Assembly: GCA_001784435.1 (NCBI GenBank)
Contig: MFQZ01000001.1
Span: 220,742 to 284,741, forward strand
From: Candidatus Magasanikbacteria bacterium RIFOXYC2_FULL_42_28
GTDB taxonomy: Bacteria; Patescibacteriota; Patescibacteriia; Magasanikbacterales; GWA2-37-8
DNA: 64,000 bases
Reading direction: 5' to 3'
Shown: one piece after another, positions 2,814 to 60,215 of the stretch
Layout: each line of letters begins with the position of its first letter
Numbering within the stretch: position 1 is the stretch's first letter
Translations under genes and position numbers: made by a program
The notes under the pieces: generated by a model
Seen by the model: only the letters and a program-made list of their open reading frames with translations
Databases searched by the model: none
What the model was told of the DNA's origin: nothing

Positions 2814-4613
2814 TTACATCTCCCCAACCACTTCAATCCCCAAAATATCCAAAGATTTTGTCAAAACCGTCCGAACGGCGCCGGACAATTGCACCCGCGC
2901 GGAAATTAATTCTTTGCTTTCGGCTTGTAGGACACTATGTTTATTGTAAAATTCATTATATGCTTGCGCTAAATCAAAAGTGTATTTAATAACGACGGAT
3001 GGATTATAATTATTGTACGCCTTTTGGATTATTTCGCCGTATTGTGATAGCAGTAATAACAATTTTTTTTCTTCGGGCGAAGTGAGTGGGACAGAGATCC
3101 CGATTTTCATCGGGATGACAGTTCGGTGAGAGGATTTTTTGATAATACTGTTGATGCGGGCGACCGTATACAAAACATACGGACCGGTAAAACCGTCAAA
3201 ACTTGCGGCCGTGGCCGGATCAAAAACAATCACTTTTTCCGCTTCGTGTTTTAAAATTTCAAATTTTATGGCCGCTTGAGTAATGGTATGCGCGGTGGTG
3301 GCGATTTTCTTTTTAGACCAATCAGTGTGACGCTTGGCGGTTTCGCTCAATAATTTTTCATAAACTTCATCGCGTAAATCTTCGTACAGTAAAACATTGC
3401 CCAAACGCGAAGACATCTTGCCAGAAGTTGTACTCACGAGCCCATAACCAATATGTTTAGTTTGGTAATTAAATCCGGCTAATTCTAAAATTTTGAATAA
3501 TTGTTTAAAATAAAAATTCTGCTCGATGCCAGTTAGGTGAACGCTTTGAAAAATTTTCGGAAATGTTTTATTGCGCAATTGCGCGAGGCCAAGATCGCTT
3601 GTTAAATACAATCCTAAACCATTGCTTTTACGCAATAATCCAATATCCAAATTATATTTATTTAGATCCACAATAATCGCTCCACCCTCGCCCACTTGTG
3701 CCACGCCTTTTTTCAATAATTCATCCACTAATTTTTGGCCGGCCTCTTTGACCTCATGTTCATACAAAACTGTTTTGTGTCGCACTCCCAATTCTTTAAA
3801 AATTATATTGAAACCGGCGATGCTCCACTGGCGCGTGGTTTTATACAACGGCCAAATGGTTTTATCGTGTTTTTCAATTTTATTTTGTATGATCGCGATT
3901 TCGTCTTTGGCTTCCGGATGTTCCGCTAAATAGATGCTCGCTTCCGTATAAATAGCCCCGAGCCAACGCTGTTTGTTGGCCGGCGGTTTTTCATTTTTAT
4001 GGAATTTTAATAAACCCCACAAACATTTGGCCACATGCGCGCCAAAATCATTAAGGTAGTTGATGGGGATAATATTAAAACCATTGGCCTCAAAAATTTT
4101 AATCAGGGAATTTCCCAAACAGATATTGCGTAAATGACCAACATGAATTTCTTTGTGGGTATTGTTGGCCGGATATTCCACGAGAATTTTTTTGCCTTTG
4201 CCGAAATTGTTTGTGCCATATTTTTTATTCGCAACCGCTGGGATAATTTCTGACGCGAGCGCGCCGGTGTTTAGGAAAAAATTGACATAAGGGCCAAAGG
4301 CGGCGACACGGCCAACAATTCGATTGTCATCCCGAGCGTTTTTTACTGTCATTCCGAGCGAGCCCTTAAGGGGCGACGAGGAATCTCCACCGGACGAATT
4401 GAACGCTGACAGAGATTTCTCACCCTTCGGGTTCGAAATGACAATGGCGAGCTGTTTAGCTATTTCAACCGGATTCATTTTTAATTCTTTGGCCAAATTA
4501 AAACACGCAAACGCCAAATCCCCCATCTCCGGTTTGGGCGGGGTGGTTAAATCAATTTCGCCGGTAACCCCGGCAACGCGTAAAATTTTTATGATTTCGG
4601 ATTTGATGTCCAT
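2814..4613 (-). CDS. argS: Arginyl-tRNA synthetase carrying two in-frame repeat-element insertions.
   Basis: HIGH motif HVGHLRN, an MSSRLG KMSKS-like motif, and class I ArgRS architecture. Insert regions translate to ...GGDSSSPLKGSLGMT... and ...MKIGISVPLTSPEE.... Confidence 0.9.
   Translation of the reverse strand: MDIKSEIIKILRVAGVTGEIDLTTPPKPEMGDLAFACFNLAKELKMNPVEIAKQLAIVISNPKGEKSLSAFNSSGGDSSSPLKGSLGMTVKNARDDNRIVGRVAAFGPYVNFFLNTGALASEIIPAVANKKYGTNNFGKGKKILVEYPANNTHKEIHVGHLRNICLGNSLIKIFEANGFNIIPINYLNDFGAHVAKCLWGLLKFHKNEKPPANKQRWLGAIYTEASIYLAEHPEAKDEIAIIQNKIEKHDKTIWPLYKTTRQWSIAGFNIIFKELGVRHKTVLYEHEVKEAGQKLVDELLKKGVAQVGEGGAIIVDLNKYNLDIGLLRKSNGLGLYLTSDLGLAQLRNKTFPKIFQSVHLTGIEQNFYFKQLFKILELAGFNYQTKHIGYGLVSTTSGKMSSRLGNVLLYEDLRDEVYEKLLSETAKRHTDWSKKKIATTAHTITQAAIKFEILKHEAEKVIVFDPATAASFDGFTGPYVLYTVARINSIIKKSSHRTVIPMKIGISVPLTSPEEKKLLLLLSQYGEIIQKAYNNYNPSVVIKYTFDLAQAYNEFYNKHSVLQAESKELISARVQLSGAVRTVLTKSLDILGIEVVGEM
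3089..3122. repeat. Family A hairpin repeat (GGACAGAGATCCCGATTTTCATCGGGATGACAG) inside the argS coding region.
   Basis: The same roughly 33-bp element recurs at 18541, 25648, 35034 and 45601. Here the argS reading frame stays open through it. Confidence 0.85.
4325..4446. repeat. Family B long palindromic element (TGTCATYCCGAGCG...GGAATCTCC...GAGATTTCTC...CGAAATGACA) inserted in frame in argS.
   Basis: Near-identical copies lie at 44797-44890 (uvrA) and 59562-59660 (queA). Shorter copies lie at 10472, 21188, 38109, 42174, 45084 and 61937. Confidence 0.85.
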
Positions 4614-4706: not shown

Positions 4707-5195
4707 TTAGGGGTAATTTAACCTATTTTTTTGAGCATCTAAATATACCAACGGAATATTTAATTTTCTAAGTAAAAATGAACATTTATTGCTGGGTGCT
4801 ATTAGTGAACGAAAAACATTTTTTTCTTTAAAAAATTTCACTAACCCGGCGTAATCACCATCACTAGTTACCAGAACCGCTTGATTAAATTGTTTTTCAA
4901 AATAATCAACTACTGCTTTTAATACTAAATCAGCATCGCAATTTCCTTTAACTTTTCCTTCACTGTTACAAGTTGTTTCCTTAAAAACCAATGTGAAGCC
5001 GGCTTCTTGTAAAAAAGTATAAAGATCTTTATTTTTTGGCACTAAACCAATAAAAAGGTAAGCGCGCTCCACTGAATATTTTTCTTTAAGCCAAATTCTA
5101 AAACGTTTATAATCTAACCTCCACCCTAAATCAGCTACACCTTTGTGAAGATTGGCGCCATCAATATAAGCAAAATTATTCTCTTTCTTTATCAT
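4707..5195 (-). CDS. NYN-domain ribonuclease (YacP/Rae1-like) embedded in the aaRS operon.
   Basis: It begins AYIDGANL and contains ...LVTSDGDYAGLV, which are NYN/PIN-like acidic motifs. Its start overlaps the tyrS stop (ATGA). Confidence 0.65.
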   Translation of the reverse strand: MIKKENNFAYIDGANLHKGVADLGWRLDYKRFRIWLKEKYSVERAYLFIGLVPKNKDLYTFLQEAGFTLVFKETTCNSEGKVKGNCDADLVLKAVVDYFEKQFNQAVLVTSDGDYAGLVKFFKEKNVFRSLIAPSNKCSFLLRKLNIPLVYLDAQKNRLNYP

Positions 5196-6383: not shown

Positions 6384-9119
6384 TTACTTCAAATTACTTA
6401 ATTGCTCTTTTAGTTTAGACAATTTTTGCTCGGTCTCGGCCAATTTTTGGGTTTCTTTTTCAACGACGGCCGGTGGGGCGTTATTGACAAATTCGGCGTT
6501 GGCCAATTTATTTTTCATAACTGTCACAAATTTTTCCGCGGCTTCAACTTCTTTGGTCAAACGCGCGGTTTCTTTTTCAATGTCAACAGCGCCGGATAAA
6601 TCTAAATAAATTTCCATATCACCGCACACCAGCGCCACAGCGTTTTCCGGTTTGACGGCCTTGGTCTCAATGGTTAGTTTTTCTAGACGCGCGAGGCCGG
6701 TGATAATAGCGCTATTTTCGGTTAACAATTTTTCTTTAGCGCCGGCACTGATTATCGCGTCAATTTTTTTGTTTGGTTCAATTTTATTGTCGGCGCGAGC
6801 GGAACGGATGGTGGTGATGATAAGTTGTATGGTATTAAAATCGTTAAGGGATTCCTCCACTACGGTCGGAATGACAAGGTGTGGCCACGATTCTACCATT
6901 AACATTCTATCGATGCCGAACATCTCACTCCAAATTTGTTCAGTAACAAACGGCATAAATGGATGCCACAATTTAAGTAATGTTTGCAAAATATACTGTA
7001 AAATCTCTTCTTTGTCACCCTCTATTTTCGCGATTTCTAAATACCAATCAGCCAATTCACTCCAAGTAAAATCGCGCAATTTTTCACCGGCCGCAGAAAA
7101 TTGAAAATTTTCAATATTCTCGCTTACATCTTTAACGGTAGCATCTAAACGCGACAAAATCCATTTGTCAGCTAATGTCAAATTTTGAATTTTTAATTGT
7201 AATTTTGAATTTTGATTTTTAATTTTTGAATTCGCGATAATAAATCGCGCCATATTCCACAATTTATTTGTAAAATTCCGGAAGCCGGCGATTTTTTCTT
7301 CGGATAATCTAGTGTCATTACCGGGGGTATTTCCAAGTAGTAATGATAAACGTGTAGCATCAGCGCCATACTTAGCAATTGAATCCAACGGATCAATTAC
7401 ATTACCAAGCGACTTACTCATTTTGCGCCCTTGCTCATCGCGCACCAGTCCGTGCATATATACTTTTTCAAACGGAATATCACCCAAAGTATAAGTAGTC
7501 ATGAGTACCATGCGCGCCACCCAGAAAAATAAAATATCATAACCGGTTTCCAACACGGAAGTTGGATGAAAAGTTTGTAAATCAACTGTTTTCTCTGGCC
7601 ATCCCAAAGTAGAAAACGTCCACAAACCCGAAGAAAACCAGGTATCCAACGTGTCAGGATCTTGGTGCAAATCGCCACCATCAGTTTGGTTCCCACAATA
7701 CGGACATACCGCTGGCTCGTCAATACTAACGATGGGATTTTCAGAAACTCCCGGCCCAACTTTTTCGGACACCTCTTGACAGGTGCCGTGGTACCACACC
7801 GGAATCTGATGACCATACCAAATCTGGCGCGAAATACACCAATCGCGCAAATTATCTATCCAGCTAAAATACGTTTTATTAAATCTTTCAGGAATAATTT
7901 CTATCTGCCCACTTGCGACCGCTTCAGACATTAACTTCTTTAAAGTCACTTTTTGACCGGCTTTAATATTTTTCAGTTTTGAATTAACAATTGAAAATTC
8001 TTTATTAACATCAATAAACCACTGCTTAGATGGCAACGGCTCAACCGCTGTACCACAACGATAACAGACGGACAAATTATGTATATAATTTTCATCCACT
8101 CTCTCAAGCAATCCCTTATCTGCTAAAATTTTAACGATCTCTTCCCGACTTGCCTGCGCGTTCTTACCGACAAAATCTCCCGCCGCATCCGTAAAATTGC
8201 CGTCTTCATCAATGATTTGAACAACATCTAAATTGTATTTTTTTGCCAATTCATAATCTTCAAAACTATGCGCCGGAGTAATAGTCATCGCACCCGTACC
8301 AAATTTAGGATCAGAGGCCTGGTCGGCGATAACTTTAGCTATAATTTTGCCACCGATCCAATCCATTTCAAATTTTGTGCCTTGCAATTTTTTGTAACGC
8401 TCATCATCTGGGTGGACGACAATAACCTTATCTAAAAATTTCGTTTCCGGACGCGCCGTGCCAATAATTACCGGACCGTATTTAAAATAATAAAATTTTG
8501 TTTTTTGTTCCTTGTATTCCACCTCATCATCCGCCAAAGTGGAGTGGCACCTCGGGCACCAATTTACAATTCTGTATCCACGATAAATCAAACCGTCGTC
8601 ATACATTTTTTTAAAAACCGTGCGCACTGCTAAATTTCGCGGTTCGTCCAAAGTAAACGCCTCACGACTCCAATCTAACGACGAACCCATTTTTTTACAT
8701 TGATTTACAATCGTATCGTGCGACGCCTGCGCAAATTTATTAACTTCGTCTAAAAATTTTTCACGCCCTAATTCTTTTTTTGGATCCTTAATTCCTTTTT
8801 CAATCAATAATTTTTCTACTTTTGTTTGAGTCGCGATTGCCGCGTGATCCGTCCCAGGCAACCACAAAGTTTTATCACCTTTCATGCGATGATATCGAAT
8901 CATCAAATCCTCTATTGCAAGCATCATGGCATGACCAATGTGAAGTGTGCCAGTTACATTTGGCGGGGGTAAAACTATTGTAAACGGTTTGGCATTTGCA
9001 TCTGTTCCACCTTTCTCAACACATACATCCGGATTAAAAAATCCGCTCTCTTCCCAGCGTTTATAAATCGCATCCTCGTAATTTTGGGGCTCGTAGGCCT
9101 TGGGTAGTTCTTTATTCAT
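6384..9119 (-). CDS. valS: Valyl-tRNA synthetase.
   Basis: PPPNVTGTLHIGHA, KMSKSLGN, and a long C-terminal coiled coil, in 911 aa. It contains an in-frame AT-rich repeat insertion at about 7178-7232. Confidence 0.92.
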   Translation of the reverse strand: MNKELPKAYEPQNYEDAIYKRWEESGFFNPDVCVEKGGTDANAKPFTIVLPPPNVTGTLHIGHAMMLAIEDLMIRYHRMKGDKTLWLPGTDHAAIATQTKVEKLLIEKGIKDPKKELGREKFLDEVNKFAQASHDTIVNQCKKMGSSLDWSREAFTLDEPRNLAVRTVFKKMYDDGLIYRGYRIVNWCPRCHSTLADDEVEYKEQKTKFYYFKYGPVIIGTARPETKFLDKVIVVHPDDERYKKLQGTKFEMDWIGGKIIAKVIADQASDPKFGTGAMTITPAHSFEDYELAKKYNLDVVQIIDEDGNFTDAAGDFVGKNAQASREEIVKILADKGLLERVDENYIHNLSVCYRCGTAVEPLPSKQWFIDVNKEFSIVNSKLKNIKAGQKVTLKKLMSEAVASGQIEIIPERFNKTYFSWIDNLRDWCISRQIWYGHQIPVWYHGTCQEVSEKVGPGVSENPIVSIDEPAVCPYCGNQTDGGDLHQDPDTLDTWFSSGLWTFSTLGWPEKTVDLQTFHPTSVLETGYDILFFWVARMVLMTTYTLGDIPFEKVYMHGLVRDEQGRKMSKSLGNVIDPLDSIAKYGADATRLSLLLGNTPGNDTRLSEEKIAGFRNFTNKLWNMARFIIANSKIKNQNSKLQLKIQNLTLADKWILSRLDATVKDVSENIENFQFSAAGEKLRDFTWSELADWYLEIAKIEGDKEEILQYILQTLLKLWHPFMPFVTEQIWSEMFGIDRMLMVESWPHLVIPTVVEESLNDFNTIQLIITTIRSARADNKIEPNKKIDAIISAGAKEKLLTENSAIITGLARLEKLTIETKAVKPENAVALVCGDMEIYLDLSGAVDIEKETARLTKEVEAAEKFVTVMKNKLANAEFVNNAPPAVVEKETQKLAETEQKLSKLKEQLSNLK
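7178..7232. repeat. AT-rich AATTTTGAATTTT-type repeat inserted in frame in valS.
   Basis: CAAATTTTGAATTTTTAATTGTAATTTTGAATTTTGATTTTTAATTTTTGAATT translates to KIKNQNSKLQLKIQNL. The same motif family occurs in intergenic repeats at 13741, 36590, 55325 and 58478. Confidence 0.6.
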
Positions 9120-10471: not shown

Positions 10472-10506
10472 TGTCATTCCGACGACGAAGGAGGAATCTC
10501 TGTCCA
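10472..10506. repeat. Short intergenic copy of the family B element (TGTCATTCCGACGACGAAGGAGGAATCTCTGTCC).
   Basis: Sequence identity to the intragenic copies. Confidence 0.8.
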
Positions 10507-10580: not shown

Positions 10581-10609
10581 TTGACATTCATATATATATG
10601 TTAATAATA
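10581..10609 (+). promoter_or_regulatory. Sigma70-like promoter upstream of the GC-rich ORF.
   Basis: TTGACA (10581-10586), a 17-bp spacer, then ATAATA. Confidence 0.5.
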
Positions 10610-10616
10610 AGTGGTT

Positions 10617-10635
10617 GAGTCGGACAGTCTGACTC
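10617..10635. promoter_or_regulatory. 19-bp imperfect palindrome (GAGTCGGACAGTCTGACTC) between the promoter and the RBS, an operator-like site.
   Basis: Dyad symmetry GAGTC...GACTC around a central A. It lies just downstream of the -10 element. Confidence 0.35.
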
Positions 10636-10663
10636 GCAAAACAACCTACACGAGGAGGCAGTC

Positions 10664-10981
10664 GTGAAAATGACCCTTGGTCAAATCGCCACGGACAGAA
10701 AAAAGACAGTCGTCGTCGTTCCGATCGGAGATGGCAAAAACCTGTCTCTCGAAGACGAGGAGTGGCTGACACTGGGAGCATTCCCCGACGTCATCATCGA
10801 GATCGACTCAGAGCGGGCCTTGCCGCTCGAGGCCTATCTGGTCAACGCCGACCAGCGACACCTGCTCATCTGCCCGAAGCACGGCCACACCATCAAGACG
10901 GCTGACGGTAAGCCCTGCGAATACGAGAATGGCCAGCGCAAGCTGTCCATTCAACCTACCAACCTGTACGCGGACAGCTGA
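10664..10981 (+). CDS. Hypothetical 105-aa protein with compositionally foreign coding (GC3-rich).
   Basis: A GAGGAGG RBS at 10652-10658 precedes the GTG/ATG start. Codon usage is dominated by G/C-ending codons (CTG, GGC, GAC, ATC), unlike the neighbouring genes. No recognisable family. Confidence 0.55.
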   Translation: MKMTLGQIATDRKKTVVVVPIGDGKNLSLEDEEWLTLGAFPDVIIEIDSERALPLEAYLVNADQRHLLICPKHGHTIKTADGKPCEYENGQRKLSIQPTNLYADS

Positions 10982-11110
10982 ACTACACGCGACTCCTGCC
11001 AGAACCCCCAGGGCCTGCACATCGTTCTTTCCCACCTTCACATCCCAGGCCCGCCCATTCTTTACAATAAAAATTGCAAAGAGTGATAATCCTGGAATGT
11101 GAATAAGTTT

Positions 11111-11146
11111 AAAAAAACGCTGTCAATTTTGACGGCGTTTTTTTGG
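11111..11146 (+). terminator. Rho-independent terminator downstream of the GC-rich ORF.
   Basis: AAAAAAACGCTGTCAA-TT-TTGACGGCGTTTTTTT. The stem has one G-U pair. It is flanked by A and T runs. Confidence 0.7.
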
Positions 11147-11218
11147 GGGAAATTTTGAAATTTTAAATTTGTTTAGAATCAGGAACAATCAGTTATCCAC
11201 AGCTTAATTGATTAAACA

Positions 11219-11247
11219 TTGACAAAATGCACTTTTTTAGGTATAAT
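11219..11247 (+). promoter_or_regulatory. Near-consensus sigma70 promoter.
   Basis: TTGACA (11219-11224), a 17-bp spacer, then TATAAT (11242-11247). Confidence 0.65.
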
Positions 11248-11253
11248 ACATGT

Positions 11254-11322
11254 GTAAGTTGGAAACAGCTTACAAACAAATCGTTGGCTTGAGGGTCCCC
11301 AAAGGATCCTTTTGGCTTTTTA
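11254..11322 (+). ncRNA. Candidate small RNA of about 65-70 nt, bracketed by a consensus promoter and a terminator hairpin.
   Basis: The TSS is predicted about 7 nt after the -10. The hairpin CCCCAAAGGATCCTTTTGG at 11297-11315 is followed by CTTTTT. The only plus-strand ORF here (68 aa) overlaps the convergent NYN gene and looks spurious. Confidence 0.4.
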
Positions 11323-11353
11323 TAATAGCAACTAACCTAATTTTCGGGCATCC

Positions 11354-21187: not shown

Positions 21188-21294
21188 ACTGTCATCCCGA
21201 GCGTAGCCGAGGGATCCCTTAATGTTGACATTGTTTTTGATGTTGACTATAAGGGATTCCTCCGCTCCCTGCGACGGTCGGTCGGAATGACAAG
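21188..21294. repeat. Intergenic long palindromic element (family B variant) between scpA and aspS.
   Basis: CTGTCATCCCGAGCGTAGCCGAGGGATCCCTTAATGTTGACAT...TAAGGGATTCCTCCGCTCCCTGCGACGGTCGGTCGGAATGACAAG. Confidence 0.8.
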
Positions 21295-36717: not shown

Positions 36718-37770
36718 ATGTTACCAAAATTTGAAGAAATCAAAAATCGTTTTAGCCAGCTGGAATCTGATTTACAATCCCCGGCCGTTCTTAATGATCC
36801 AAAAAAATTAAAAGAGGTATCACAGGAATATTCCGATTTGAAAGAAACTGCGGATCATGTCAATGAACTGGCGAAGGTGGAAAAAAATCTTACCGATGCC
36901 GAACTCATGCTCACCACCGAAACCGACGAAGAAATGCTCACTATCGCCGCTTCCGAAATTTTGGAATTAAAAGAAAAACAATCCGCCTTGCAAAAAATCT
37001 TAAAAGAGTTGACACACCCACGCGACCCGATGGACAAAAAAAATATTATCGTGGAAATCCGGGCGGCCGCCGGTGGTGACGAGTCGGGATTATTCGCGGC
37101 TGAATTGTATCGCATGTATGCCAAATATGCCGAAAGCAAACATTGGAAAGTTAGCGTGTTGGATTCAAGCGAAAGTGGCATCGGCGGATTTAAAGAAATT
37201 ACTTTTGGGATCAAAGGCCAGAACGCTTACCGCGATTTAAAATATGAAATGGGCGTGCATCGTGTGCAACGAGTGCCAGACACGGAAAAAACCGGACGCA
37301 TCCACACCTCCACTGTCACCGTCGCGGTCTTGCCGGAAATTGAAGAAACCGAATTAAAAATTGAAGCCAAAGATTTGCGCATCGATACTTTTTGCGCCGG
37401 TGGCGCGGGCGGACAAAGTGTGAACACGACTTACTCGGCCGTGCGCATCGTGCACATTCCAACCGGCACAATGGTACAATGCCAAGACGAACGTTCCCAA
37501 ACTGCTAATCGCGAAAAAGCCATGGCAGTTTTGCGCTCCCGTTTATACGAATTAGAACGCGAGAAAAAAGCCAAAGAATACACCGACAAACGCCGTTCCC
37601 AAATTGGCTCGGGCGATCGCAGTGAAAAAATTCGTACTTACAATTTTCCTCAAGACCGAATTTCCGACCACCGCGTCCACCAAAATTGGAACAATATTAG
37701 TACCATTATGAACGGCGATTTAGATCCGATAATCAACGCGCTTCATACCGCTGATTATGCGCAAGAGTAA
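36718..37770 (+). CDS. prfA: Peptide chain release factor 1.
   Basis: GGQ motif ([11 protein letters not shown]) and a PxT-type tripeptide region ([17 protein letters not shown]). Confidence 0.9.
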
Positions 37771-38746
37771 ATTTTTTTTGAATTTAGGGCAAATAAAAAA
37801 TTCTTGGAGCGATAAAATTCCGGCTTTGGATTTGGATTTGATTTTGGCTGATGCGATAAACCAACCGAGAGAATTTATAATCACCCATCCGGAATTTCGC
37901 CCAAACCCGTGGCAACTTCTAAAAATTTATATTAATTTGTCACGCCGAAACAACGACGTGCCTATCGCCTACATAACAGGCCACAAAGAATTTTTTGGCC
38001 TTGATTTTTTTGTTAATAAAAATGTCTTAGTGCCACGACCAGATACGGAAATACTCGTCGAAACGGCAATATCGCTAATATCCAATATCTTTAAATCGCA
38101 AAACTTATCTGTCATTCCGACGGCGAAGGAGGAATCTCTATCCGGTTCGCCACATCCAATAACACTCATCGACGTCGGCACCGGCTCCGGCTGTATTCCA
38201 ATCGCGATAAATAAAACACTGCAACAATTAAACACTGCAACAAACAAACAGACCGGCATCACAACCCACGCGATTGATATCTCGCATCGCGCACTTAGAG
38301 TCGTCAAAAAAAATGCCAAAAAACATAACGTAAAAATAAATTTTCACCAAGGCAATTTGATTGAGCCAATCGCAAAATCTTCAATCTTCAGTCTTCAATC
38401 TTCGCTCATCATCACCGCCAATCTCCCCTACCTCACTCAATCGCAATTTGATAATGAACAGTCAATAAAAAAAGAGCCGAAACTGGCTCTAGTCGCGGAT
38501 AATCAAAACGGACTATCCCTCTACGAAAAATTACTCACACAGTTAAAATCTTCAATCTTCAATCTTCAATCTTCCATTACGCTACTCCTCGAAATCGACC
38601 CCAGCCAAACCACTGACATTCGTACACTCGTAAAAAACATCTTCCCATCTGCCCAAATAGAAATCAAAAAAGATTTGGCCGGACTTGATCGCGTGGTAAT
38701 AATTCAATTGATCACTTCAACCACCACCTCCCACGGCACAATTTGA
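37757..38746 (+). CDS. prmC: Release factor glutamine methyltransferase (PrmC/HemK) with three in-frame repeat insertions.
   Basis: [17 protein letters not shown] motif and the NLPY substrate motif ([10 protein letters not shown]). Inserts translate to [26 protein letters not shown] and [10 protein letters not shown]. Confidence 0.85.
38109..38154. repeat. Short family B element in frame in prmC.
   Basis: CTGTCATTCCGACGGCGAAGGAGGAATCTCTATCC. Confidence 0.8.
38375..38404. repeat. Tandem heptamer repeat (AATCTTC, about 4 copies) in frame in prmC.
   Basis: AAAATCTTCAATCTTCAGTCTTCAATCTTC. A second block lies at 38546-38574. Confidence 0.8.
38546..38574. repeat. Second tandem AATCTTC heptamer block in frame in prmC.
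   Basis: AAATCTTCAATCTTCAATCTTCAATCTTCC. Confidence 0.8.
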
Positions 38747-41256: not shown

Positions 41257-42576
41257 TTATTTATTATCTTTAATCTTTCGCTTTTCACGTTGAAATTTAA
41301 TGGCAAACCGATGGGCTTCATCGCGCACTTTAATTAAAACCTCTAAATTTTTTTGCGCCCATTTAGGTACGGGCATGTCTTGTATTTTAGCATTAGTGCC
41401 GACCACCACCAAATCATTGCGCTTCCGTTTTGCGCCTTTGGCAATACCCACAACCGGAATATCTATTTTCAAATTATTTAACACTGATTTTACCGCGTTC
41501 ACCTGGGGCACGCCGCCATCAATTAAAAATACAGCTGGCATCGGCCACTCGCTATGTTTCAATCGGCGCGACAAAACTTCCTTTAAACAATCAACATCGC
41601 TTTGGCCAACCACGGTTTTAATATTAAATTTGCGATAATCGGTTTTAGACGGCACACCACCTTTAAATACTACCATACTCCCAACCTTGCCAGTAGCGCC
41701 CAAATTGGAAATATCATAACCTTCAATCCGCATCTCACCGCTCTGCCCGGACGGATCAATGGTAAAACTTTTATTCAAAAGCGCGATATCCTGAATTCTA
41801 TTTAACGCTTTAATTTGATTTCGCAATCTCCCCGCTTCTTCAAAATTTTCCACGCGCGATGCTTGAACCATTTTTGTATTCAAGCTCCGCAGAAGCGATT
41901 TTTTTTGGCCACTTAAAAATAATTTCAAAGGATTGATAACTTTCTGACGATATTCAGCTGGCGTGATTCCCCCATCGCAAACGCCCAAACACAAACCAAT
42001 CTGCCGATAAAAACACGGACGCGTTTGCCCGGGCGAACAAGTAGAATACAAAAATAAACTCCGCAAAATTTTCAAAGTCGCCGCCGTATTTAATCCTGGG
42101 TACGGGCCAAACACGTTTTTCCTTCCCCTGCCCGAGGGGAGGGCGAGGGTGAGGTGGGAGCGGGCGCCGTTTTTTGTCATTCCGAGCGAAGCTCGCGCCG
42201 ACGAGGAATCTCCATCCAACTCATGCTGTCGCACCACCAAAACCTTCGGAAATTTATCCTTTGTAACCACCAAATAATTCCAACTTTTATCATCTCTCCA
42301 ATCAACATTATACTTCGGCTGTTTTTCCTTAATATATTTCCCCTCCAAAATAATCGCCTCCAAAACCGAATCTGTCACTTCTACTTTTATATCCACGACT
42401 TCATGCATCATTTGTTCGATTGGGCGACTACTGCGCGCGCCCCGAAAATACGACCGCACCCGTGAACGCAAACTCGTTGCCTTGCCAACATAAATTAATT
42501 CTTTTTTTGAATTATAAAATAGATATACGCCGGGTGCATCGGGTAATTTTTTTAATTTTTTCTGGATATCTAACAT
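41257..42576 (-). CDS. uvrC: Excinuclease ABC subunit C. Short form lacking the C-terminal HhH region. Carries an in-frame repeat insertion.
   Basis: GIY-YIG N-terminus (GVYLFYNSKKELIYVGKATSLRSRV). An RNase H-like/EndoV-like domain (GYDISNLGATGKVGSMVVFKGG). Insertion translates to ...SSARASLGMT...LALPSGRGRK. Confidence 0.85.
   Translation of the reverse strand: MLDIQKKLKKLPDAPGVYLFYNSKKELIYVGKATSLRSRVRSYFRGARSSRPIEQMMHEVVDIKVEVTDSVLEAIILEGKYIKEKQPKYNVDWRDDKSWNYLVVTKDKFPKVLVVRQHELDGDSSSARASLGMTKNGARSHLTLALPSGRGRKNVFGPYPGLNTAATLKILRSLFLYSTCSPGQTRPCFYRQIGLCLGVCDGGITPAEYRQKVINPLKLFLSGQKKSLLRSLNTKMVQASRVENFEEAGRLRNQIKALNRIQDIALLNKSFTIDPSGQSGEMRIEGYDISNLGATGKVGSMVVFKGGVPSKTDYRKFNIKTVVGQSDVDCLKEVLSRRLKHSEWPMPAVFLIDGGVPQVNAVKSVLNNLKIDIPVVGIAKGAKRKRNDLVVVGTNAKIQDMPVPKWAQKNLEVLIKVRDEAHRFAIKFQREKRKIKDNK
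42121..42222. repeat. Composite insertion in uvrC: a family C G-rich element (CCCCTGCCCGAGGGGAGGGCGAGGGTGAGG) followed by a family B short element.
   Basis: Family C copies are also at 45647-45686, 57254-57297 and 59931-59970. Confidence 0.8.
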
Positions 42577-42586
42577 ACTAATTTAA

Positions 42587-42616
42587 TTGACATAACATAC
42601 CATTTAATTATATAAT
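42587..42616 (+). promoter_or_regulatory. Sigma70-like promoter upstream of a small GC-rich ORF.
   Basis: TTGACA (42587-42592), an 18-bp spacer, then TATAAT (42611-42616). Confidence 0.5.
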
Positions 42617-42647
42617 CCCAGCGAACCCCAACTCTTCGGAGGAAGAC

Positions 42648-42797
42648 ATGTTGCACGCATTGTTCGCATGTGGAGCGGCGGTTCTCCTTGGCCTCACCAT
42701 TGGCTTCGTCTCGGCGACGTACTTCAACCGACGCGCCCGCGCCAAGATGAACAAGCTGTTCGAACAGAAGCCCAACGCTAGCGATCAGCTCATCTGA
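42648..42797 (+). CDS. Small (49-aa) single-TM peptide with foreign GC3-rich codon usage.
   Basis: A GGAGG RBS at 42638-42642 precedes MLHALFACGAAVLLGLTIGFVSATYFNRRARAKMNKLFEQKPNASDQLI. It is too short for the ORF track. It sits between uvrC and uvrA. Confidence 0.45.
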   Translation: MLHALFACGAAVLLGLTIGFVSATYFNRRARAKMNKLFEQKPNASDQLI

Positions 42798-42937
42798 CCA
42801 CGAACTCCACCCGGGGCCACCAGAAAGGAGGTTCCAAGAACCACCCGCGCCCCACTTTGGCTGTAAAGTATATCATGATTTAAGTCATGATATAAATATA
42901 TATTTTACAATCAAAGTGGCGGGTGGTTTTTGTTTTG

Positions 42938-45589
42938 CTATATAACTCTTTTTAAATAAGCCCCCGTAAAACTCGCCGCCTTTTTCGCCACCTCCTCCGG
43001 CGTCCCCACCGCCACCACCTGCCCGCCCTTATCGCCCCCTTCCGGCCCCAAATCAATCACCCAATCCGCCGCTTTTATTATATCCAAATTATGCTCAATT
43101 ACCAAAATCGTATTTCCTTGCGATACCAAACGCTGTAAAACTTCTAATAACTTCCGCACATCATCGTAATGCAAACCGGTCGTCGGCTCATCTAACAAAT
43201 ACAAAGTTTTCGTCGTGCCATAACGCGCCAACTCCCGTGACAATTTAATTCGTTGCGCTTCCCCACCCGACAAAGTCGTGGCCGATTGCCCCAAAGTTAA
43301 ATAATCCAAACCCACTTCGTTTAAAATTTTCAACTTGTCATAAATCATCGGAATATCGCGGAAAAATTCCTCGGCGTCTTCAATCGTCATTGCCAAGACC
43401 TCGGCAATATTTTTTCCGTTATAACTCACAGCCAATGTCTCATTCGTAAACCGCAAACCCTTACACACATCACAAGTCACTTCCACACTCGGCAAAAAAT
43501 GCATTTCAATTTCCAGCACGCCTTTGCCCTCGCAATTTTCGCACCGGCCGGCATTTTTGACATTAAAACTAAACCGCGAAGCCGTGTACCCCCGCATGCG
43601 CGCCTCGGCCGTTTCGGCAAACAACGCCCGAATATGGTCAAAACATTTGGTATAAGTCGCCGGGTTACTGCGCGAAGTCCGACCAATGGACGACTGGTCA
43701 ATCGTTATCACACCATCCAAATATTCCAAGCCGGAAACTTCCAAACAATTTTCCAATTTCTTTTTCTGGCGAAATATTTTGTTCATGACAGCCGGCCGCA
43801 AAACTTCATTCATCAAAGTTGACTTACCCGAACCCGACACGCCGGTCAAACAGACAAACCGGCGCAACGGAATTTCCACATTAATATTTTTTAAATTATG
43901 CAAATTCGCTTTTTTAATTTTTAATTTCGGCGTCGCGCGATCAACCTCACGCCGTTTCAATGGCATGGGAATAGTTACTTCGCCACGCAGATACTTGCCG
44001 GTTAAAGAACTGCTTTTGTGTTTCGCTGACAGCAAATCTTTCACCGTGCCAGAATACACAATCTCGCCCCCATGCTTCCCCGCCCCGGGACCAATATCCA
44101 CAATCCAATCACTCACCTTAATTGTATCCTCGTCGTGTTCTACTACTATTATCGTATTTCCCGCATCGCACAACGCCCGCAAAGTTTTCACCAACCGGTC
44201 ATTATCACGTTGATGCAAACCAATTGTCGGCTCATCCAATACATACAACGCCCCCACAAGGCGCGTCCCCACCTGCGACGCCAGTCGTATCCGTTGCGCT
44301 TCCCCGCCCGACAAAGTCCCGGCCTTACGATTCAAAGTTAAATAATGCAACCCCACGTCATACATAAACTGCAATCGATTTTGAATTTCTTTCAAAACCA
44401 TTCCGCAAATTTGCATCGTACGTTCAGGCAAATCTAATTCCAACGCCGCGAAAAACTCGCGCGCCTCACTAATAGACAAATTCGTAATTTCCCAAATATT
44501 TTTCCCGCCAATTTTTACGCTTAGCGCGTTAACATTCAAACGCTTACCCAAACACACCGGGCAATCTTCCACTGAAAATAATTCTTTCGTGCCAAGCCCA
44601 GTACACGCCTCGCAATATCCATACGGACTATTAAACGAAAAAAGTCGTGGCTCAATTTCCGGAAAACTAAAACCATCTTTCGGACAAGAATACAAAGTAG
44701 AGAATGTCTGTTCTTCGCCGTCCGCATAGATCACAGCGCACAACCCCTTAGACAAATTCACCGCCGCCTCCACCGCTTCGGCAAGTCGTTGGTTATCTGT
44801 CATCCCGAGCGAGCCCTTAAGGGGCGACGAGGGATCTCCATCCGCCGGTAATTGGGATAGAGATTTCTCCTTCGTCGTCGAAATGACAGCGAGTGGCACT
44901 CGATCAACCACCACCTCAATCGTATGCTTAAAATTCTTTTCCAAAATTATCCGCTCGCGCAAACTTTTTATTTTCCCATCCACCCGCACTTCCAAATACC
45001 CAGAATTATACAAATCATAAAGCATCTGATAATACTCCCCCTTCCTGCCTCGCACCACCGGCGACAAAACAACAATCTCTTTACTGTCATTTCGAGCGAG
45101 GCCTTTTGGCCGACGAGAAATCTTCGCGTCTTCGTCCGTCACTTTGGAAATTGGAAATTGGAAATTGGAAATTCTCGCACCCATCTCATCCACCGTCATC
45201 TTCTCAATCTTACTCCCACAATCCGGACAATGTGGCACCCCCACACGCGCAAAAAGAACCCGCAAATAATCATAAATTTCCGTAATCGTCGCCACGGTCG
45301 AACGCGGATTCGCACTATGCGCCTTTTGATCAATCGAAATCGCCGGCGACAACCCTTCAATTTCATCCACATCCGGCTTTTGCATCCCACCCAAAAACTG
45401 CCGAGCGTAAGCCGACAATGACTCAATATACCGCCTCTGCCCCTCGGCAAAAATCGTATCAAACGCCAAAGAAGACTTGCCCGATCCCGACAACCCCGTA
45501 AAAACAATCATCTGATTGCGAGGCAACTCCAAATTAACATTTTTCAAATTGTGTTCGCGTGCGCCTTTGATAATAATTTTGTTTTGCAT
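42938..45589 (-). CDS. uvrA: Excinuclease ABC subunit A with at least two in-frame repeat insertions.
   Basis: Tandem ABC ATPase modules (GLSGSGKSSLAF...; GVSGSGKSTL), zinc-finger Cys clusters and ABC signature motifs. Confidence 0.92.
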   Translation of the reverse strand: MQNKIIIKGAREHNLKNVNLELPRNQMIVFTGLSGSGKSSLAFDTIFAEGQRRYIESLSAYARQFLGGMQKPDVDEIEGLSPAISIDQKAHSANPRSTVATITEIYDYLRVLFARVGVPHCPDCGSKIEKMTVDEMGARISNFQFPISKVTDEDAKISRRPKGLARNDSKEIVVLSPVVRGRKGEYYQMLYDLYNSGYLEVRVDGKIKSLRERIILEKNFKHTIEVVVDRVPLAVISTTKEKSLSQLPADGDPSSPLKGSLGMTDNQRLAEAVEAAVNLSKGLCAVIYADGEEQTFSTLYSCPKDGFSFPEIEPRLFSFNSPYGYCEACTGLGTKELFSVEDCPVCLGKRLNVNALSVKIGGKNIWEITNLSISEAREFFAALELDLPERTMQICGMVLKEIQNRLQFMYDVGLHYLTLNRKAGTLSGGEAQRIRLASQVGTRLVGALYVLDEPTIGLHQRDNDRLVKTLRALCDAGNTIIVVEHDEDTIKVSDWIVDIGPGAGKHGGEIVYSGTVKDLLSAKHKSSSLTGKYLRGEVTIPMPLKRREVDRATPKLKIKKANLHNLKNINVEIPLRRFVCLTGVSGSGKSTLMNEVLRPAVMNKIFRQKKKLENCLEVSGLEYLDGVITIDQSSIGRTSRSNPATYTKCFDHIRALFAETAEARMRGYTASRFSFNVKNAGRCENCEGKGVLEIEMHFLPSVEVTCDVCKGLRFTNETLAVSYNGKNIAEVLAMTIEDAEEFFRDIPMIYDKLKILNEVGLDYLTLGQSATTLSGGEAQRIKLSRELARYGTTKTLYLLDEPTTGLHYDDVRKLLEVLQRLVSQGNTILVIEHNLDIIKAADWVIDLGPEGGDKGGQVVAVGTPEEVAKKAASFTGAYLKRVI
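44797..44890. repeat. Full-length family B palindromic element in frame in uvrA.
   Basis: Near-identical to 4325-4446 (argS). It translates to DGDPSSPLKGSLGMT. Confidence 0.85.
45084..45180. repeat. Family B variant plus a family E (GGAAATTGGAAATTGGAAATT) repeat in frame in uvrA.
   Basis: CTGTCATTTCGAGCGAGGCCTTTTGGCCGACGAGAAATCTTCGCGTCTTCGTCCGTCACTTTGGAAATTGGAAATTGGAAATTGGAAATTC. Confidence 0.8.
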
Positions 45590-58997: not shown

Positions 58998-60215
58998 TTA
59001 AATTATTAACATTGCATCCCCAAAACTATAAAAACGATATTTGGCTTTAATCGCTTCGGCGTAACATTTTAAAACAAACTCTCTGTCCCCGGCAAACGCG
59101 GACACAAGCATCAACAGTGTGGACTCGGGCAAATGAAAATTGGTGATAAGCGCGTCCACCACTTGAAATTTAAAACCGGGGGTAATAAAAATATTAATAT
59201 CGCCATCGTACGGCGTGACTTGTCCGTCAAATTTTTGCGCCACTCCTTCCAACGTCCGCACCGTTGTCGTGCCAACCGCTACCACGCGTCGGCCACTGGC
59301 CTTGGCCGCGTTAATTAACCCGGCATTTTTATCAGTAATTTCTACCCACTCGGCGTGCATTTTATGATCTTCAACTTTTTCGGTTTTAACTGGTAAAAAT
59401 GTCCCTAACCCAACATGCAAAGTAACTTCCGCAAACTCCACACCCTGTTTTTTCAATCGCTCAATCAATTCTTCAGTAAAGTGAAATCCGGCTGTCGGCG
59501 CGGCCACTGAACCTTCATATTTGGCATACACGGTCTGATACCGCTCTGCAACATACTCACTTGTCATCCCGAGCGAGGACTCCCGACTTAGTCGGGACGA
59601 GGGATCTCCACCAACAAATGATTGGGATAGAGATTCCTCCTTCGCCGTCGGAATGACAGAAATGTACGGTGGTGTCGGCACTTCGCCATATTTATTCGCC
59701 TTGGCGCGCACAATCGCGTCCGAATCATTAAACTGTAAATCCACCGTGCCATCATCATTTTTAAACATCACCTCGGCAAAAAAATCATCTGCAAAAACCA
59801 CCCTCATCCCCAAGCGCAATTTTTTTCCCGGCTTAGCGAGCGCCCGCCACACCCCCGGATTTTCCATCGGCCGCGTTAAAAATATTTCGACTTTCGGCGC
59901 GTTAAAAATTACATCAGTACACTCAAATTTCCCCGTCCTTTTCAAGGAGGGGGCGAGGGGGTGGTTCGGCACACCCGCGACCTCCTCATCCAACATTACC
60001 GTCCCGCGCAAGCGCGCCTTAAAAACTTTCGTATTATTCCACACCACCAAATCCCCAGCACGCAAATACTTACAAATTTCCGCAAACGAATTTTCATGCT
60101 GAAAAATCTTGCGTTCGCGATCAACCAACATTAACCGCGAAGAATCGCGTGGCGTTGCCGGCGTTTGCGCAATTAGTTCTTTTGGTAAATTATAATTAAA
60201 ATCCGAGGTGAGCAT
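58998..60215 (-). CDS. queA: S-adenosylmethionine:tRNA ribosyltransferase-isomerase with two in-frame repeat insertions.
   Basis: MLTSDFNYNLPKELIAQTPATPRDSSRLML N-terminus. About 60 aa longer than typical QueA. Inserts translate to GGDPSSRLSRESSLGMT and PTPPLPLKRTGKFECT. Confidence 0.88.
   Translation of the reverse strand: MLTSDFNYNLPKELIAQTPATPRDSSRLMLVDRERKIFQHENSFAEICKYLRAGDLVVWNNTKVFKARLRGTVMLDEEVAGVPNHPLAPSLKRTGKFECTDVIFNAPKVEIFLTRPMENPGVWRALAKPGKKLRLGMRVVFADDFFAEVMFKNDDGTVDLQFNDSDAIVRAKANKYGEVPTPPYISVIPTAKEESLSQSFVGGDPSSRLSRESSLGMTSEYVAERYQTVYAKYEGSVAAPTAGFHFTEELIERLKKQGVEFAEVTLHVGLGTFLPVKTEKVEDHKMHAEWVEITDKNAGLINAAKASGRRVVAVGTTTVRTLEGVAQKFDGQVTPYDGDINIFITPGFKFQVVDALITNFHLPESTLLMLVSAFAGDREFVLKCYAEAIKAKYRFYSFGDAMLII
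59562..59660. repeat. Full-length family B element in frame in queA.
   Basis: TTGTCATCCCGAGCGAGGACTCCCGACTTAGTCGGGACGAGGGATCTCCACC...GGGATAGAGATTCCTCCTTCGCCGTCGGAATGACAGA. Confidence 0.85.
59931..59970. repeat. Family C G-rich element (CCCCGTCCTTTTCAAGGAGGGGGCGAGGGGGTGGTT) in frame in queA.
   Basis: Near-identical to 45647-45686. Confidence 0.8.

What the first reader, a model, noticed from the sequence alone, without database searches (positions are those of the whole stretch)
42587..42935. Second GC3-rich islet encoding a 49-aa single-TM peptide between uvrC and uvrA.
It has the same foreign codon signature as the 10664-10981 gene. A TTGACA-18-TATAAT promoter, a GGAGG RBS, one N-terminal TM helix and then a basic tail (RRARAKMNKLFEQK), which is the architecture of type I toxin-like or small membrane regulatory peptides. 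It is followed by a long imperfect hairpin (CCACCCGCGCCCCACTTTG ... CAAAGTGGCGGGTGG) that encloses an internal palindrome ATCATGATTTAAGTCATGAT. Two compositionally identical islets within 32 kb suggest a common source.
Basis: seen in the sequence. Interest (0 to 1): 0.6.

Follow-up and report, generated by a model that had tools for sequence, protein, structure and literature searches.

The report
Orphan membrane-peptide gene at uvrA–uvrC junction
A self-contained mini-gene for a 49-residue membrane peptide, written in a foreign GC-rich codon dialect, sits between two DNA-repair genes of a Magasanikbacteria (CPR) genome. Its reading frame has no relative anywhere, and the sister species carries an unrelated frame next to an almost identical 3' hairpin.

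Summary
A 12/12 TTGACA-18-TATAAT promoter, a GGAGG site, a 49-codon ORF (42648-42797, GC3 0.76; native genes 0.21-0.55) and a 98-nt hairpin with a U-tract are all present. The only other such islet in the window is 10670-10981, with near-identical third-position composition.

The organism is a Candidatus Magasanikbacteria (CPR). Neither peptide has a homologue in 5.8 billion proteins, and neither matches any Pfam, NCBIfam, PHROG, PADLOC or Rfam family.

The uvrA-uvrC junction varies from 5 nt to 4.5 kb across relatives and often holds GC3-rich orphan mini-genes with their own promoters and terminators. In the closest relative, the same slot keeps the promoter layout and a 128-nt 3' block (126/128 identical; 4-fold sites about 67%) but carries an unrelated 53-codon ORF. 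In both species the mRNA 5' end (GAACCCC) is predicted to pair with GGAGGUUC beside the terminator.

Best reading: an autonomous, moron-like accessory gene cassette for a small membrane peptide, in a gene-gain hot spot, on a stabilised and possibly gated mRNA. The type I toxin reading is neither excluded nor supported: no antitoxin RNA, no family match, and the peptide is not conserved. The peptide's function is unknown.

The parts
42587..42616 (+). Sigma-70-type promoter of the islet: -35 TTGACA at 42587-42592, 18-nt spacer, -10 TATAAT at 42611-42616.
   Evidence: It matches 12 of 12 positions. The layout TAATTGAC-N16/17-TATATAAT-N6-GAACCCC-N8-GGAG is shared with L002, while the spacers are unrelated.
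42607..42612 (-). Perfect TATAAT on the minus strand, overlapping the islet's -10 hexamer. It is the likely -10 of uvrC, whose ATG is at 42576 (inference).
   Evidence: Read directly from the sequence. In relatives where uvrA abuts uvrC there is no separate promoter region.
42623..42629 (+). 5'-terminal motif GAACCCC of the predicted mRNA. It forms the 5' strand of the predicted 5'-3' closing helix.
   Evidence: It is conserved in L002 at the same distance from the -10. Its pairing probability with 42827-42834 is 0.82-0.99, robust across predicted transcription start sites 42618-42623.
42638..42642 (+). Shine-Dalgarno GGAGG, five nt upstream of the ATG.
   Evidence: Read. In the window's MFE and centroid folds it pairs with UCUCC in codons 12-13. 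In L002 the equivalent site is unpaired.
42648..42797 (+). ORF of 49 codons encoding a single-pass membrane peptide with a basic C-terminal tail. It is an orphan with a GC-rich codon dialect.
42809..42936 (+). Conserved 3' block of 128 nt, 126/128 identical to L002/L053.
   Evidence: Shown. It is in the top 2% of 128-nt windows for identity, while 4-fold sites are only 66-68% identical. It is single-copy in the window and absent from 30 other loci.
42822..42834 (+). AGAAAGGAGGUUC: an 11-nt Shine-Dalgarno-like run with no start codon after it. Its GGAGGUUC portion (42827-42834) is the 3' strand of the closing helix. An alternative local partner, GAACUCC, lies at 42802-42808.
42835..42936 (+). 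Long imperfect hairpin with a GC-rich base, a 4-nt bulge and an AT-rich apex carrying the palindrome 42869-42894, followed by the U-tract 42927-42936. It is an intrinsic terminator for the islet and is convergent with the uvrA stop codon at 42938-42940.
   Evidence: The only Rfam matches are generic hairpin hits far below threshold.
10581..11147 (+). Sister islet 1. It has a promoter TTGACA-16-AATAAT (10581-10608), a 5' stem-loop, a GAGGAGG ribosome-binding site, an ORF at 10670-10981 (103 aa, orphan), a long 3' hairpin and a terminator.

Best explanation
The islet is an autonomous, monocistronic accessory gene cassette inserted into the uvrA-uvrC junction of a Candidatus Magasanikbacteria genome. 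In this lineage the junction is a hot spot where extra, often GC3-rich and orphan, genes accumulate as stand-alone transcription units.

How it probably works:
1. A consensus promoter makes an mRNA of about 315 nt (inferred from sequence).
2. The first bases of that mRNA (GAACCCC) pair with GGAGGUUC just upstream of a long terminator hairpin (predicted in both species). Both RNA ends are therefore buried, which should give a long-lived message and possibly a translationally gated one (inferred).
3. Translation from GGAGG-N5-AUG gives a 49-residue peptide. It has one transmembrane helix, with the basic tail RRARAK... expected on the cytoplasmic side (predicted).
4. The reading frame is expendable or exchangeable. 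The sister species keeps the promoter layout, the 5' tag and the 3' block but carries an unrelated ORF (shown). The cargo therefore seems to be replaced or to turn over, while the expression module and the flanking homology persist.
5. The insertion also supplies uvrC with a promoter on the other strand (inferred).

The biochemical role of the peptide is not known. A small membrane modulator or toxin-like peptide is the likeliest class.
For: Anatomy and coding signal:
- Promoter, ribosome-binding site, ORF and terminator are all present.
- The coding signal is significant: GC3 periodicity p = 0.0027, and a TM-grade hydrophobic block in only 0.29% of shuffles.

Foreign composition:
- The codon dialect is foreign and is not the dialect of highly expressed native genes.

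Orphan status:
- No homologues in the large protein searches and no protein-family hits.

Hot spot:
- uvrA and uvrC are 5-30 nt apart in L012, L016, L017, L019, L022 and L023. They are 0.3-4.5 kb apart, with varied cargo, in L002, L003, L005, L009-L011, L013, L025 and L043.
- The slots of L011, L013, L043 and L054 hold one to three GC3-rich (0.58-0.94) orphan mini-genes. Each has its own promoter, 5' stem-loop, SD, 3' GC hairpin and terminator.
- One of these families keeps its frame at 38% identity, so these are real proteins.

ORF turnover against a kept module:
-.

5'-3' pairing:
- Predicted in both mRNAs despite unrelated bodies. Folding z-scores are -4.5 and -6.6, and pair probabilities are >0.8 in the window and ≥0.94 in L002, apart from one position at 0.28.

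Real sequence:
- Identical in independent assemblies.

Architecture matches the definition of a moron: own promoter and terminator, composition unlike the neighbours, and extra DNA relative to related genomes (PMC3594210).
Against: - There is no expression or proteomic evidence of any kind.
- The peptide has no homologue, so purifying selection on it cannot be shown.
- With 4-fold sites only about 67% identical between the two species, the unalignable ORF segment (shuffle p about 0.11) proves turnover. It does not strictly distinguish replacement from very fast divergence with indels.
- The 98% identity of the 3' block need not reflect selection. A 128-nt, 100%-identical tract inside prmC (38216-38343) shows that recent recombination tracts occur between these two lineages.
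- Only two lineages carry the block, so there is no covariation test of the RNA structure.
- No vector (phage, plasmid or integrase) was found that could explain delivery.
- Several cassettes in relatives combine GC3 of 0.87-0.94 with native-like GC1/GC2. Simple import from a GC-rich donor does not explain that pattern.
Confidence: 0.55

Rival explanations
1. A type I toxin-antitoxin module. The 49-aa TM peptide would be a membrane toxin. Its mRNA would be held inactive by 5'-3' pairing until processed at the 3' end. An antisense RNA started in the AT-rich hairpin apex on the minus strand would neutralise it.
For: - The peptide is small and hydrophobic with a basic tail.
- 5'-3' long-distance pairing is predicted, and in the window the SD pairs with codons 12-13. 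This resembles aapA1 full-length mRNA (PMC5416894).
- There are minus-strand promoter-like sites at 42914-42887 and 42896-42867, the latter with TGaTATACT. These lie inside the conserved block, so dual-strand use could explain its conservation. The minus-strand RNA would carry ACCUCCUUUCU, complementary to an SD.
Against: - The minus-strand sites match only 9/12 positions, lie in an AT-rich palindrome that gives similar matches on both strands, and have no convincing terminator.
- There is no hit to Hok, Ldr, TisB, Fst, Ibs or other toxin families and none in PADLOC.
- The peptide is single-copy and not conserved. The sister species' ORF in the same slot is acidic (net charge -3), and its best hydrophobic window scores 1.63 and contains Asp and Arg. 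In L002 the SD is unpaired.
Confidence: 0.17
2. The functional unit is a non-coding RNA or a DNA site, namely the conserved 128-nt block with the promoter driving it. The GC-rich segment upstream would be an unconstrained leader whose ORFs are incidental.
For: - Only the block and a few 5' motifs are conserved, and the ORF segment is not.
- An ORF stays open in 31% of composition-preserving shuffles.
- L002's ORF periodicity is not significant, p = 0.10.
- The block contains an 11-nt perfect SD-like run with no start codon.
- Both slots neighbour ORF-less mini-transcription units, at L002 4690-4935 and window 11219-11335.
Against: - Islet 2 has significant codon-position periodicity (p = 0.0027) and a TM-length hydrophobic block that shuffles rarely produce (0.29%). 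It also has an SD at ideal spacing in both species.
- Islet 1, with the same dialect, has 103 codons with p < 5e-5.
- An unconstrained leader in a 43% GC genome should not hold 57% GC and a GC3 of 0.76.
- There is no Rfam family.
- The block's identity may be a recombination tract rather than selection.
Confidence: 0.15
3. A native, very highly expressed small protein whose GC3-rich codons result from translational selection rather than foreign origin.
For: - The promoter is consensus, the ends of the message are stabilised, and the ribosome-binding site is strong.
- Some cassettes in relatives have native-like GC1/GC2 with GC3 of 0.9.
Against: - Ribosomal-protein, EF-Ts and glycolytic genes of the same window use the ordinary dialect: AAA .77, TTR Leu .78, TTT .78, ATT .62. 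The islets use the opposite: AAG .80, CTS Leu .74, TTC 1.0, ATC .80.
- The UTRs of the islet are also GC-rich.
- There are no orthologues even in the sister species.
Confidence: 0.05

Closest known systems
Phage 'morons' (autonomous accessory transcription units; PMC3594210)
   Same: It has its own sigma-70 promoter and intrinsic terminator. Its composition is unlike the flanking genes. It is present as extra DNA between two genes that abut in related genomes. Its cargo is small, orphan and non-essential-looking.
   Different: It is not in a phage or prophage. It is flanked by uvrA and uvrC, with no phage genes within 5 kb on either side and no relatives in viral, phage or plasmid collections. 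The host is a CPR bacterium. It also has a conserved 128-nt 3' module with 5'-3' pairing, which is not part of the moron definition.
PeSL regulatory cassettes and ORFan shuffling in T4-type phages (PMC2839356, PMC4122927)
   Same: Small orphan ORFs are bracketed by strong promoters and stem-loop terminators. Closely related genomes differ by replacement of the ORF while the regulatory motifs persist. Terminator-promoter composites sit between tandem mini-genes in L011, L013 and L043.
   Different: PeSLs are many near-identical copies within one phage genome, which recombine with each other. Here the 3' block is single-copy in the window and absent from 30 other loci. There is no evidence of mini-circles, and the context is chromosomal.
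Type I toxin mRNAs with 5'-3' long-distance interaction (hok, aapA1/IsoA1; PMC5416894)
   Same: The mRNA is about 250-320 nt and encodes a hydrophobic peptide of fewer than 60 aa. The 5' end is predicted to pair with a sequence next to the terminator. The fold is highly stable.
   Different: No antitoxin RNA was identified, there is no family membership, the peptide is not conserved, and the ORF in the sister species is not a typical membrane toxin.
Integron gene cassettes with attC sites
   Same: A small orphan ORF with atypical composition is followed by an imperfect inverted repeat of about 100 nt with a bulge. The ORF differs between relatives while the repeat is conserved, as with Vibrio VCRs (from my own knowledge).
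   Different: I could not find the core sites RYYYAAC/GTTRRRY at the hairpin base on either strand (read by eye). There is no integrase within 5 kb on either side. The cassette has its own promoter, there is no array, and the block is not repeated.

Membership tests
Type I toxin-antitoxin system | Small (<60 aa) hydrophobic or transmembrane toxin ORF | tested here: met
   The ORF is 49 aa. The best 19-residue Kyte-Doolittle window scores 2.14 at residues 5-23, and AlphaFold2 gives one helix over 2-44.
Type I toxin-antitoxin system | Cognate antisense or overlapping small RNA antitoxin gene | tested here: inconclusive
   The only candidates are 9/12 promoter-like matches on the minus strand inside the AT-rich palindrome, with a weak terminator-like site at 42842-42830. 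There are no expression data.
Type I toxin-antitoxin system | Sequence membership of a described toxin family (Hok, Ldr, TisB, Fst, Ibs, TxpA and others) | tested here: not met
   Pfam gives only LapA_dom at E = 0.024, 15 bits against a cut-off of 28. NCBIfam hits are all far below their cut-offs. PADLOC gives none.
Type I toxin-antitoxin system | Toxin mRNA folded so that the 5' region is locked by long-distance pairing | tested here: met
   This is in silico only. GAACCCC:GGAGGUUC pairing has probability >0.8 in the window and ≥0.94 in L002, apart from one position at 0.28. SD occlusion is seen in the window but not in L002.
Type I toxin-antitoxin system | Toxicity on overexpression, relieved by the RNA | not testable with these tools
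   This needs an experiment.
Moron-type autonomous accessory unit | Own promoter and own terminator | tested here: met
   The promoter matches 12/12 positions. A hairpin plus U-tract forms the terminator.
Moron-type autonomous accessory unit | Nucleotide composition differs from the surrounding genes | tested here: met
   GC3 is 0.76, against 0.43 in uvrC and 0.51 in uvrA. C3 is 0.47, against 0.12-0.15 in uvrA and uvrC.
Moron-type autonomous accessory unit | Extra DNA between genes that are adjacent in related genomes | tested here: met
   The uvrA-uvrC gap is 5-30 nt in L012, L016, L017, L019, L022 and L023, and 361 nt here.
Moron-type autonomous accessory unit | Resides in a phage or prophage genome | tested here: not met
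   The neighbours are uvrA, uvrC, L25 and acetyltransferases. There are no viral, phage or plasmid relatives.
PeSL-type shuffling cassette | Multiple near-identical promoter/stem-loop copies in one genome that recombine | tested here: not met
   The block motif occurs once in 64 kb. The covariance-model search finds no other copy in 367 kb of held sequence. The rest of the genome was not searchable.
Integron cassette / attC | R''/R' core sites (RYYYAAC ... GTTRRRY) at the base of the imperfect hairpin | tested here: not met
   By reading, the hairpin base is CAAGAACCACCCGC / GCGGGTGGTTTTTG. Neither strand fits the core consensus.
Integron cassette / attC | IntI integrase or an array of attC sites nearby | tested here: not met
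   None of the called genes within 5 kb on either side carries an integrase domain. The block is single-copy.
Any Rfam RNA family | Score at or above the family gathering threshold | tested here: not met
   There are 0 hits at gathering threshold over the window. The permissive scan gives only generic miRNA-hairpin matches of 14-31 bits against thresholds of 45-140.

The most novel reading that the evidence does not exclude
The locus is a fixed 'expression socket'. It would consist of a conserved promoter layout, a 5' tag (GAACCCC) and a 128-nt 3' hairpin module, which pair with each other across the message. Unrelated GC-rich ORFs would be swapped into this socket by homologous exchange between co-occurring CPR lineages. 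That would make it an integrase-free cassette-exchange system. The 3' module would serve at once as terminator, mRNA lock or gate, and recombination anchor.
Probability: 0.15. Interest if true: 0.7.

Novelty: new variant of a known kind. Interest (0 to 1): 0.45.

Why it matters
CPR bacteria have tiny genomes and poorly understood accessory gene pools. This locus shows three things:
- A housekeeping operon junction (uvrA-uvrC) serves as a recurrent landing site for foreign-dialect orphan genes.
- Those genes arrive, or are kept, as fully equipped single-gene transcription units.
- In at least one pair of lineages, the regulatory shell outlives the reading frame.

If the shell really is an exchange scaffold, it would be a simple route by which episymbiotic bacteria sample new small proteins. 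The 5'-3' locked mRNA design would also be a compact expression device.

If not, the locus is one more orphan small membrane peptide. That is still useful to annotate, because NCBI's annotation lacks it and only JGI called it.

Tried and rejected
- Known RNA genes. Rfam at gathering threshold over the window and nine related loci gave nothing. A permissive scan of the islet gave only generic hairpin hits. ARAGORN found nothing.
- Protein homology. The word-indexed search of 5.8e9 proteins found only the query itself. Full HMMER over 1.84e9 representatives found the query plus P0002, a 1635-aa repeat protein whose six weak stretches are a chance match.
- Protein families. Pfam, PHROGs, PADLOC and NCBIfam gave nothing above cut-off.
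- Phage or plasmid origin. There were no relatives in IMG/VR, INPHARED or PLSDB, by DNA or by protein.
- Spread of the 3' block. A 23-mer scan of metagenome contigs found only L053, which belongs to the L002 lineage. A covariance model found no further copy in 31 held sources.
- Translational selection as the cause of GC3. Rejected by the codon tables.
- Assembly chimera. Rejected, because the sequence is identical in independent assemblies.
- Neighbouring repeat as the cause of the GC shift. Rejected, because no repeat copy lies inside the islet.
- Short direct repeats bracketing the ORFs (GAACCCCAACTCT/GAAGCCCAACGCT and CAACCTAC...). These are at chance level for regions of this size.
- LexA/Cheo box or dif-like site in the promoter or the hairpin apex. 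I saw none on reading. This was not a formal test.
- Structure of the islet-1 protein. Single-sequence AlphaFold2 gave pLDDT 35, which is unusable, so I ran no fold search.
- Strain variants of the slot, looked up through identical neighbouring proteins. Only the same sequence was recovered.

Full report
**1. What is there**

The window comes from a Candidatus Magasanikbacteria (CPR/Patescibacteria) contig from the Rifle aquifer. The contig is JGI 3300002209, C687J26860_1000065. The islet-1 protein is NCBI A3J93_01660 of 'Magasanikbacteria bacterium RIFOXYC2_FULL_42_..'.

uvrC (41257-42576, minus strand) and uvrA (42938-45589, minus strand) are separated by 361 nt. That gap holds a complete plus-strand transcription unit:
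- a promoter TTGACA-18-TATAAT at 42587-42616, matching 12/12 positions;
- GGAGG at 42638-42642;
- ATG at 42648 and a 49-codon ORF ending at 42797;
- a 98-nt imperfect hairpin at 42835-42932, with a GC-rich base, a 4-nt bulge and an AT-rich apex carrying the palindrome 42869-42894;
- the tract TTTTTGTTTT after the hairpin.

The slot is identical in independent assemblies, so it is not a chimera.

**2. Is it more than chance?**

- GC by codon position is 0.54/0.42/0.76. No native gene exceeds GC3 of 0.55. None of 1450 native 50-codon windows reaches 0.76.
- The periodicity has a permutation p of 0.0027.
- The ORF being open is not informative in itself, since 31% of position-preserving shuffles stay open. 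However, a 19-residue window with Kyte-Doolittle 2.14 or more occurs in only 0.29% of those shuffles.
- AlphaFold2 gives a single helix over residues 2-44, pLDDT 81.
- Scanning the whole window for small GC3-rich ORFs outside larger genes returns only this islet and 10670-10981.
- Their third-position compositions are almost the same: C3 is 0.47 in both, and A3 is 0.10 and 0.14.
- The codon dialect is the reverse of the native one. The islets use AAG .80, CTC+CTG .74, TTC 1.0 and ATC .80. Native genes use AAA .84, TTA+TTG .74, TTT .86 and ATT .64.
- Putatively highly expressed native genes (S2, L11, L25, L31, EF-Ts, enolase, GAPDH, PGK) use the native dialect. Translational selection is therefore not the cause.

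**3. Homology**

- The 49-aa peptide has no relative in 5.8 billion clustered proteins. It has none in an exhaustive HMMER pass over 1.84 billion representatives either. The one extra hit there, P0002, is a repetitive 1635-aa surface protein and a chance match.
- The islet-1 protein is equally alone.
- No Pfam, NCBIfam, PHROG or PADLOC family reaches its cut-off. The best is LapA_dom at E = 0.024, 15 bits against 28.
- No Rfam family matches.
- There are no relatives in viral contigs, phage genomes or plasmids.

**4. The comparative picture changes the interpretation**

uvrA followed by uvrC is conserved across Magasanikbacteria and neighbouring Patescibacteria. The gap between them, however, ranges from 5-30 nt (L012, L016, L017, L019, L022, L023) to 4.5 kb (L011, L013, L025, L005).

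The long slots hold varied cargo:
- Some cargo has native composition (L003, L005, L010, L025).
- Much of it is GC3-rich. L011, L013, L043 and L054 carry a DHO_dh gene (E = 3e-39), an amidohydrolase-like gene, and one to three orphan mini-genes of 39-117 codons with GC3 of 0.58-0.94.
- Each mini-gene has its own promoter, a stem-loop at the mRNA 5' end, an SD, a GC-rich 3' hairpin (often built from GGAGG/CCTCC arms) and a terminator of the type aTTCGCCtttaGGGCGttttttt.
- One such family keeps its frame at 38% identity (E = 1e-25) yet has only five members in 5.8e9 proteins. These are real but very narrowly distributed proteins.

The window's islet is a small instance of this lineage-wide habit. 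It splits what is elsewhere a uvrA-uvrC pair. It also supplies a perfect TATAAT on the minus strand (42612-42607) that can serve uvrC. This last point is inference.

**5. The sister species**

L002/L053 is Magasanikbacteria RIFOXYD2_FULL_41_14. One search gave uvrC 84% identical over its best segment; global alignment gives about 89% amino-acid identity for both uvrA and uvrC. 4-fold degenerate sites are only 66-68% identical. The same slot there contains three things:
- The same promoter layout, with identical spacings but unrelated spacers: TAATTGAC-N16/17-TATATAAT-N6-GAACCCC-N8-GGAG.
- A different ORF of 53 codons, MFKKVVEKAFHF.... It has net charge -3, and its best hydrophobic window scores 1.63 and contains Asp and Arg.
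- The same 3' block, 126/128 identical from CCCGGGGCCACC to the end of the U-tract.

The segment from the transcription start to the block aligns no better than shuffles (p about 0.11). blastn with 7-nt words finds nothing there, although neutral sequence at 67% identity should still give hits. The frame has therefore been replaced, or has diverged faster than neutral.

The block ranks in the top 2% of 128-nt windows for identity. I cannot attribute this to selection alone. A 128-nt stretch inside prmC (38216-38343) is 100% identical, including synonymous sites. Recent recombination tracts therefore exist between these two co-occurring lineages.

The block was found nowhere else:
- once in the window;
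- not in 50 other loci;
- not by a covariance model in 31 sources;
- in the metagenome scan, only in the L002 lineage.

**6. Predicted RNA mechanism**

Folding the full predicted transcripts of both species gives the same architecture despite the unrelated bodies. The 5'-terminal GAACC(CC) pairs with GGAGGUUC (42827-42834), immediately 5' of the long terminator hairpin. This appears in both the MFE and the centroid structures. The z-scores are -4.5 and -6.6 against dinucleotide shuffles. Pair probabilities are 0.82-0.99 in the window, across predicted starts 42618-42623. In L002 they are ≥0.94, apart from one position at 0.28.

GGAGGUUC is part of an 11-nt run, AGAAAGGAGGU, that looks like a maximal Shine-Dalgarno sequence but has no start codon after it. 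A second, local partner ([G/C]AAC[U/C]CC) lies just after the stop codon in both species, so an alternative local hairpin is possible.

In the window the true SD is also paired, to UCUCC in codons 12-13. In L002 it is free.

Islet 1 shows a 5' stem-loop, and its SD/start region pairs with CACGCGACUCC just after its stop codon.

I infer that these units make end-protected, long-lived mRNAs. The 5'-3' helix may also gate translation, as shown experimentally for aapA1 full-length mRNA (PMC5416894). None of this has been tested here.

**7. Verdict on the readings**

- Best reading (0.55): a moron-like autonomous accessory cassette for a small membrane peptide, in a gene-gain hot spot, with cargo turnover inside a retained expression shell. 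The moron definition fits (own promoter and terminator, deviant composition, 'more DNA' than relatives; PMC3594210) except that the context is a CPR chromosome, not a phage. The closest mechanistic analogy for ORF replacement between conserved promoter/stem-loop modules is PeSL shuffling in T4-type phages (PMC2839356). The multi-copy requirement of that system is not met here.
- Type I TA (0.17): the peptide class and the mRNA fold fit. The antitoxin, family membership and conservation do not.
- ncRNA or DNA-site-only reading (0.15): this fits the conservation pattern but not the coding statistics.
- Native codon selection (0.05): contradicted by the codon tables.

**8. What remains odd**

Some cassettes in relatives have GC3 of 0.87-0.94 together with GC1/GC2 typical of an AT-rich genome. 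Simple import from a GC-rich donor does not explain this. Possible causes are selection at the RNA level or biased gene conversion at a recombination hot spot, and these remain open.

The donor and the vehicle of these genes are unknown.

Noticed in passing
window 4348-4385, 6850-6875, 10473-10498, 21255-21291, 38111-38136, 42176-42210, 59632-59657 (plus about 17 one-mismatch half-sites): A short GC-rich palindromic repeat family, GTCATTCCGA-N6-21-GGAATC, has 7 exact copies against 0 expected. Several copies lie in frame inside genes. One is in uvrC (translated ...SSARASLGMTKNG...), and a related SLGMT insert is in uvrA. This recalls Rickettsia palindromic elements. None lies inside the islet.
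   Followed up: partly
window 11219-11335 (+): Right after islet 1 there is a second perfect TTGACA-17-TATAAT promoter. It is followed by about 80 nt with two hairpins and a U-tract but no ORF. This is a candidate small RNA gene with no Rfam match.
   Followed up: no
L002 4690-4935 (minus strand), same as L053 2010-2260: Between the conserved 3' block and uvrA, the sister species carries two extra mini-units that are absent from the window. One is a tRNA-like RNA with acceptor stem GGGCCGU/ACGGUCC (G3-U70) and T-arm GGGGUUCGACUCCCC. The other has 11 nt complementary to the first (GGCUAGGAUAG / CUAUCCUAGCC) and a stretch GCAAACGAUUCU... reminiscent of a tmRNA tag start. ARAGORN and Rfam are both negative.
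   Followed up: partly
window 38216-38343 (inside prmC, 37757-38746): This stretch of 128 nt is 100% identical to L002, although 4-fold sites average 67% identity. It looks like a recent recombination tract between two co-occurring Magasanikbacteria lineages. It matters for judging the conservation of the 3' block.
   Followed up: partly
L013 2388-5347; L011 2147-4339; L054 718-1716: The uvrA-uvrC slots of other Magasanikbacteria hold GC3-rich (0.59-0.74) full-size genes. These include a dihydroorotate dehydrogenase (PF01180, E = 3e-39) and an amidohydrolase-like gene. Each has its own promoter and terminator. They look like acquired pyrimidine-pathway genes in CPR genomes.
   Followed up: partly
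L011 4830-4870, 5365-5390, 5880-5910; L013 5878-5904; L043 5330-5390, 5897-5914; L005 about 7440-7500: The 3' UTR hairpins of the mini-genes are repeatedly built from an SD-like arm (GGAGG/GGGAGGAG) and its complement (CCTCC). In the window such exact GGAGG...CCTCC pairs are rare: 1 found, 0.25 expected.
   Followed up: partly
window 42605-42616, both strands: The sequence TAATTATATAAT gives a perfect TATAAT on both strands. The islet promoter and the likely uvrC promoter therefore share one overlapping -10 region, set back to back.
   Followed up: no
window 4707-5195 (-): This gene is a compositional outlier in the opposite direction. Its GC3 is 0.21, the lowest in the window.
   Followed up: no
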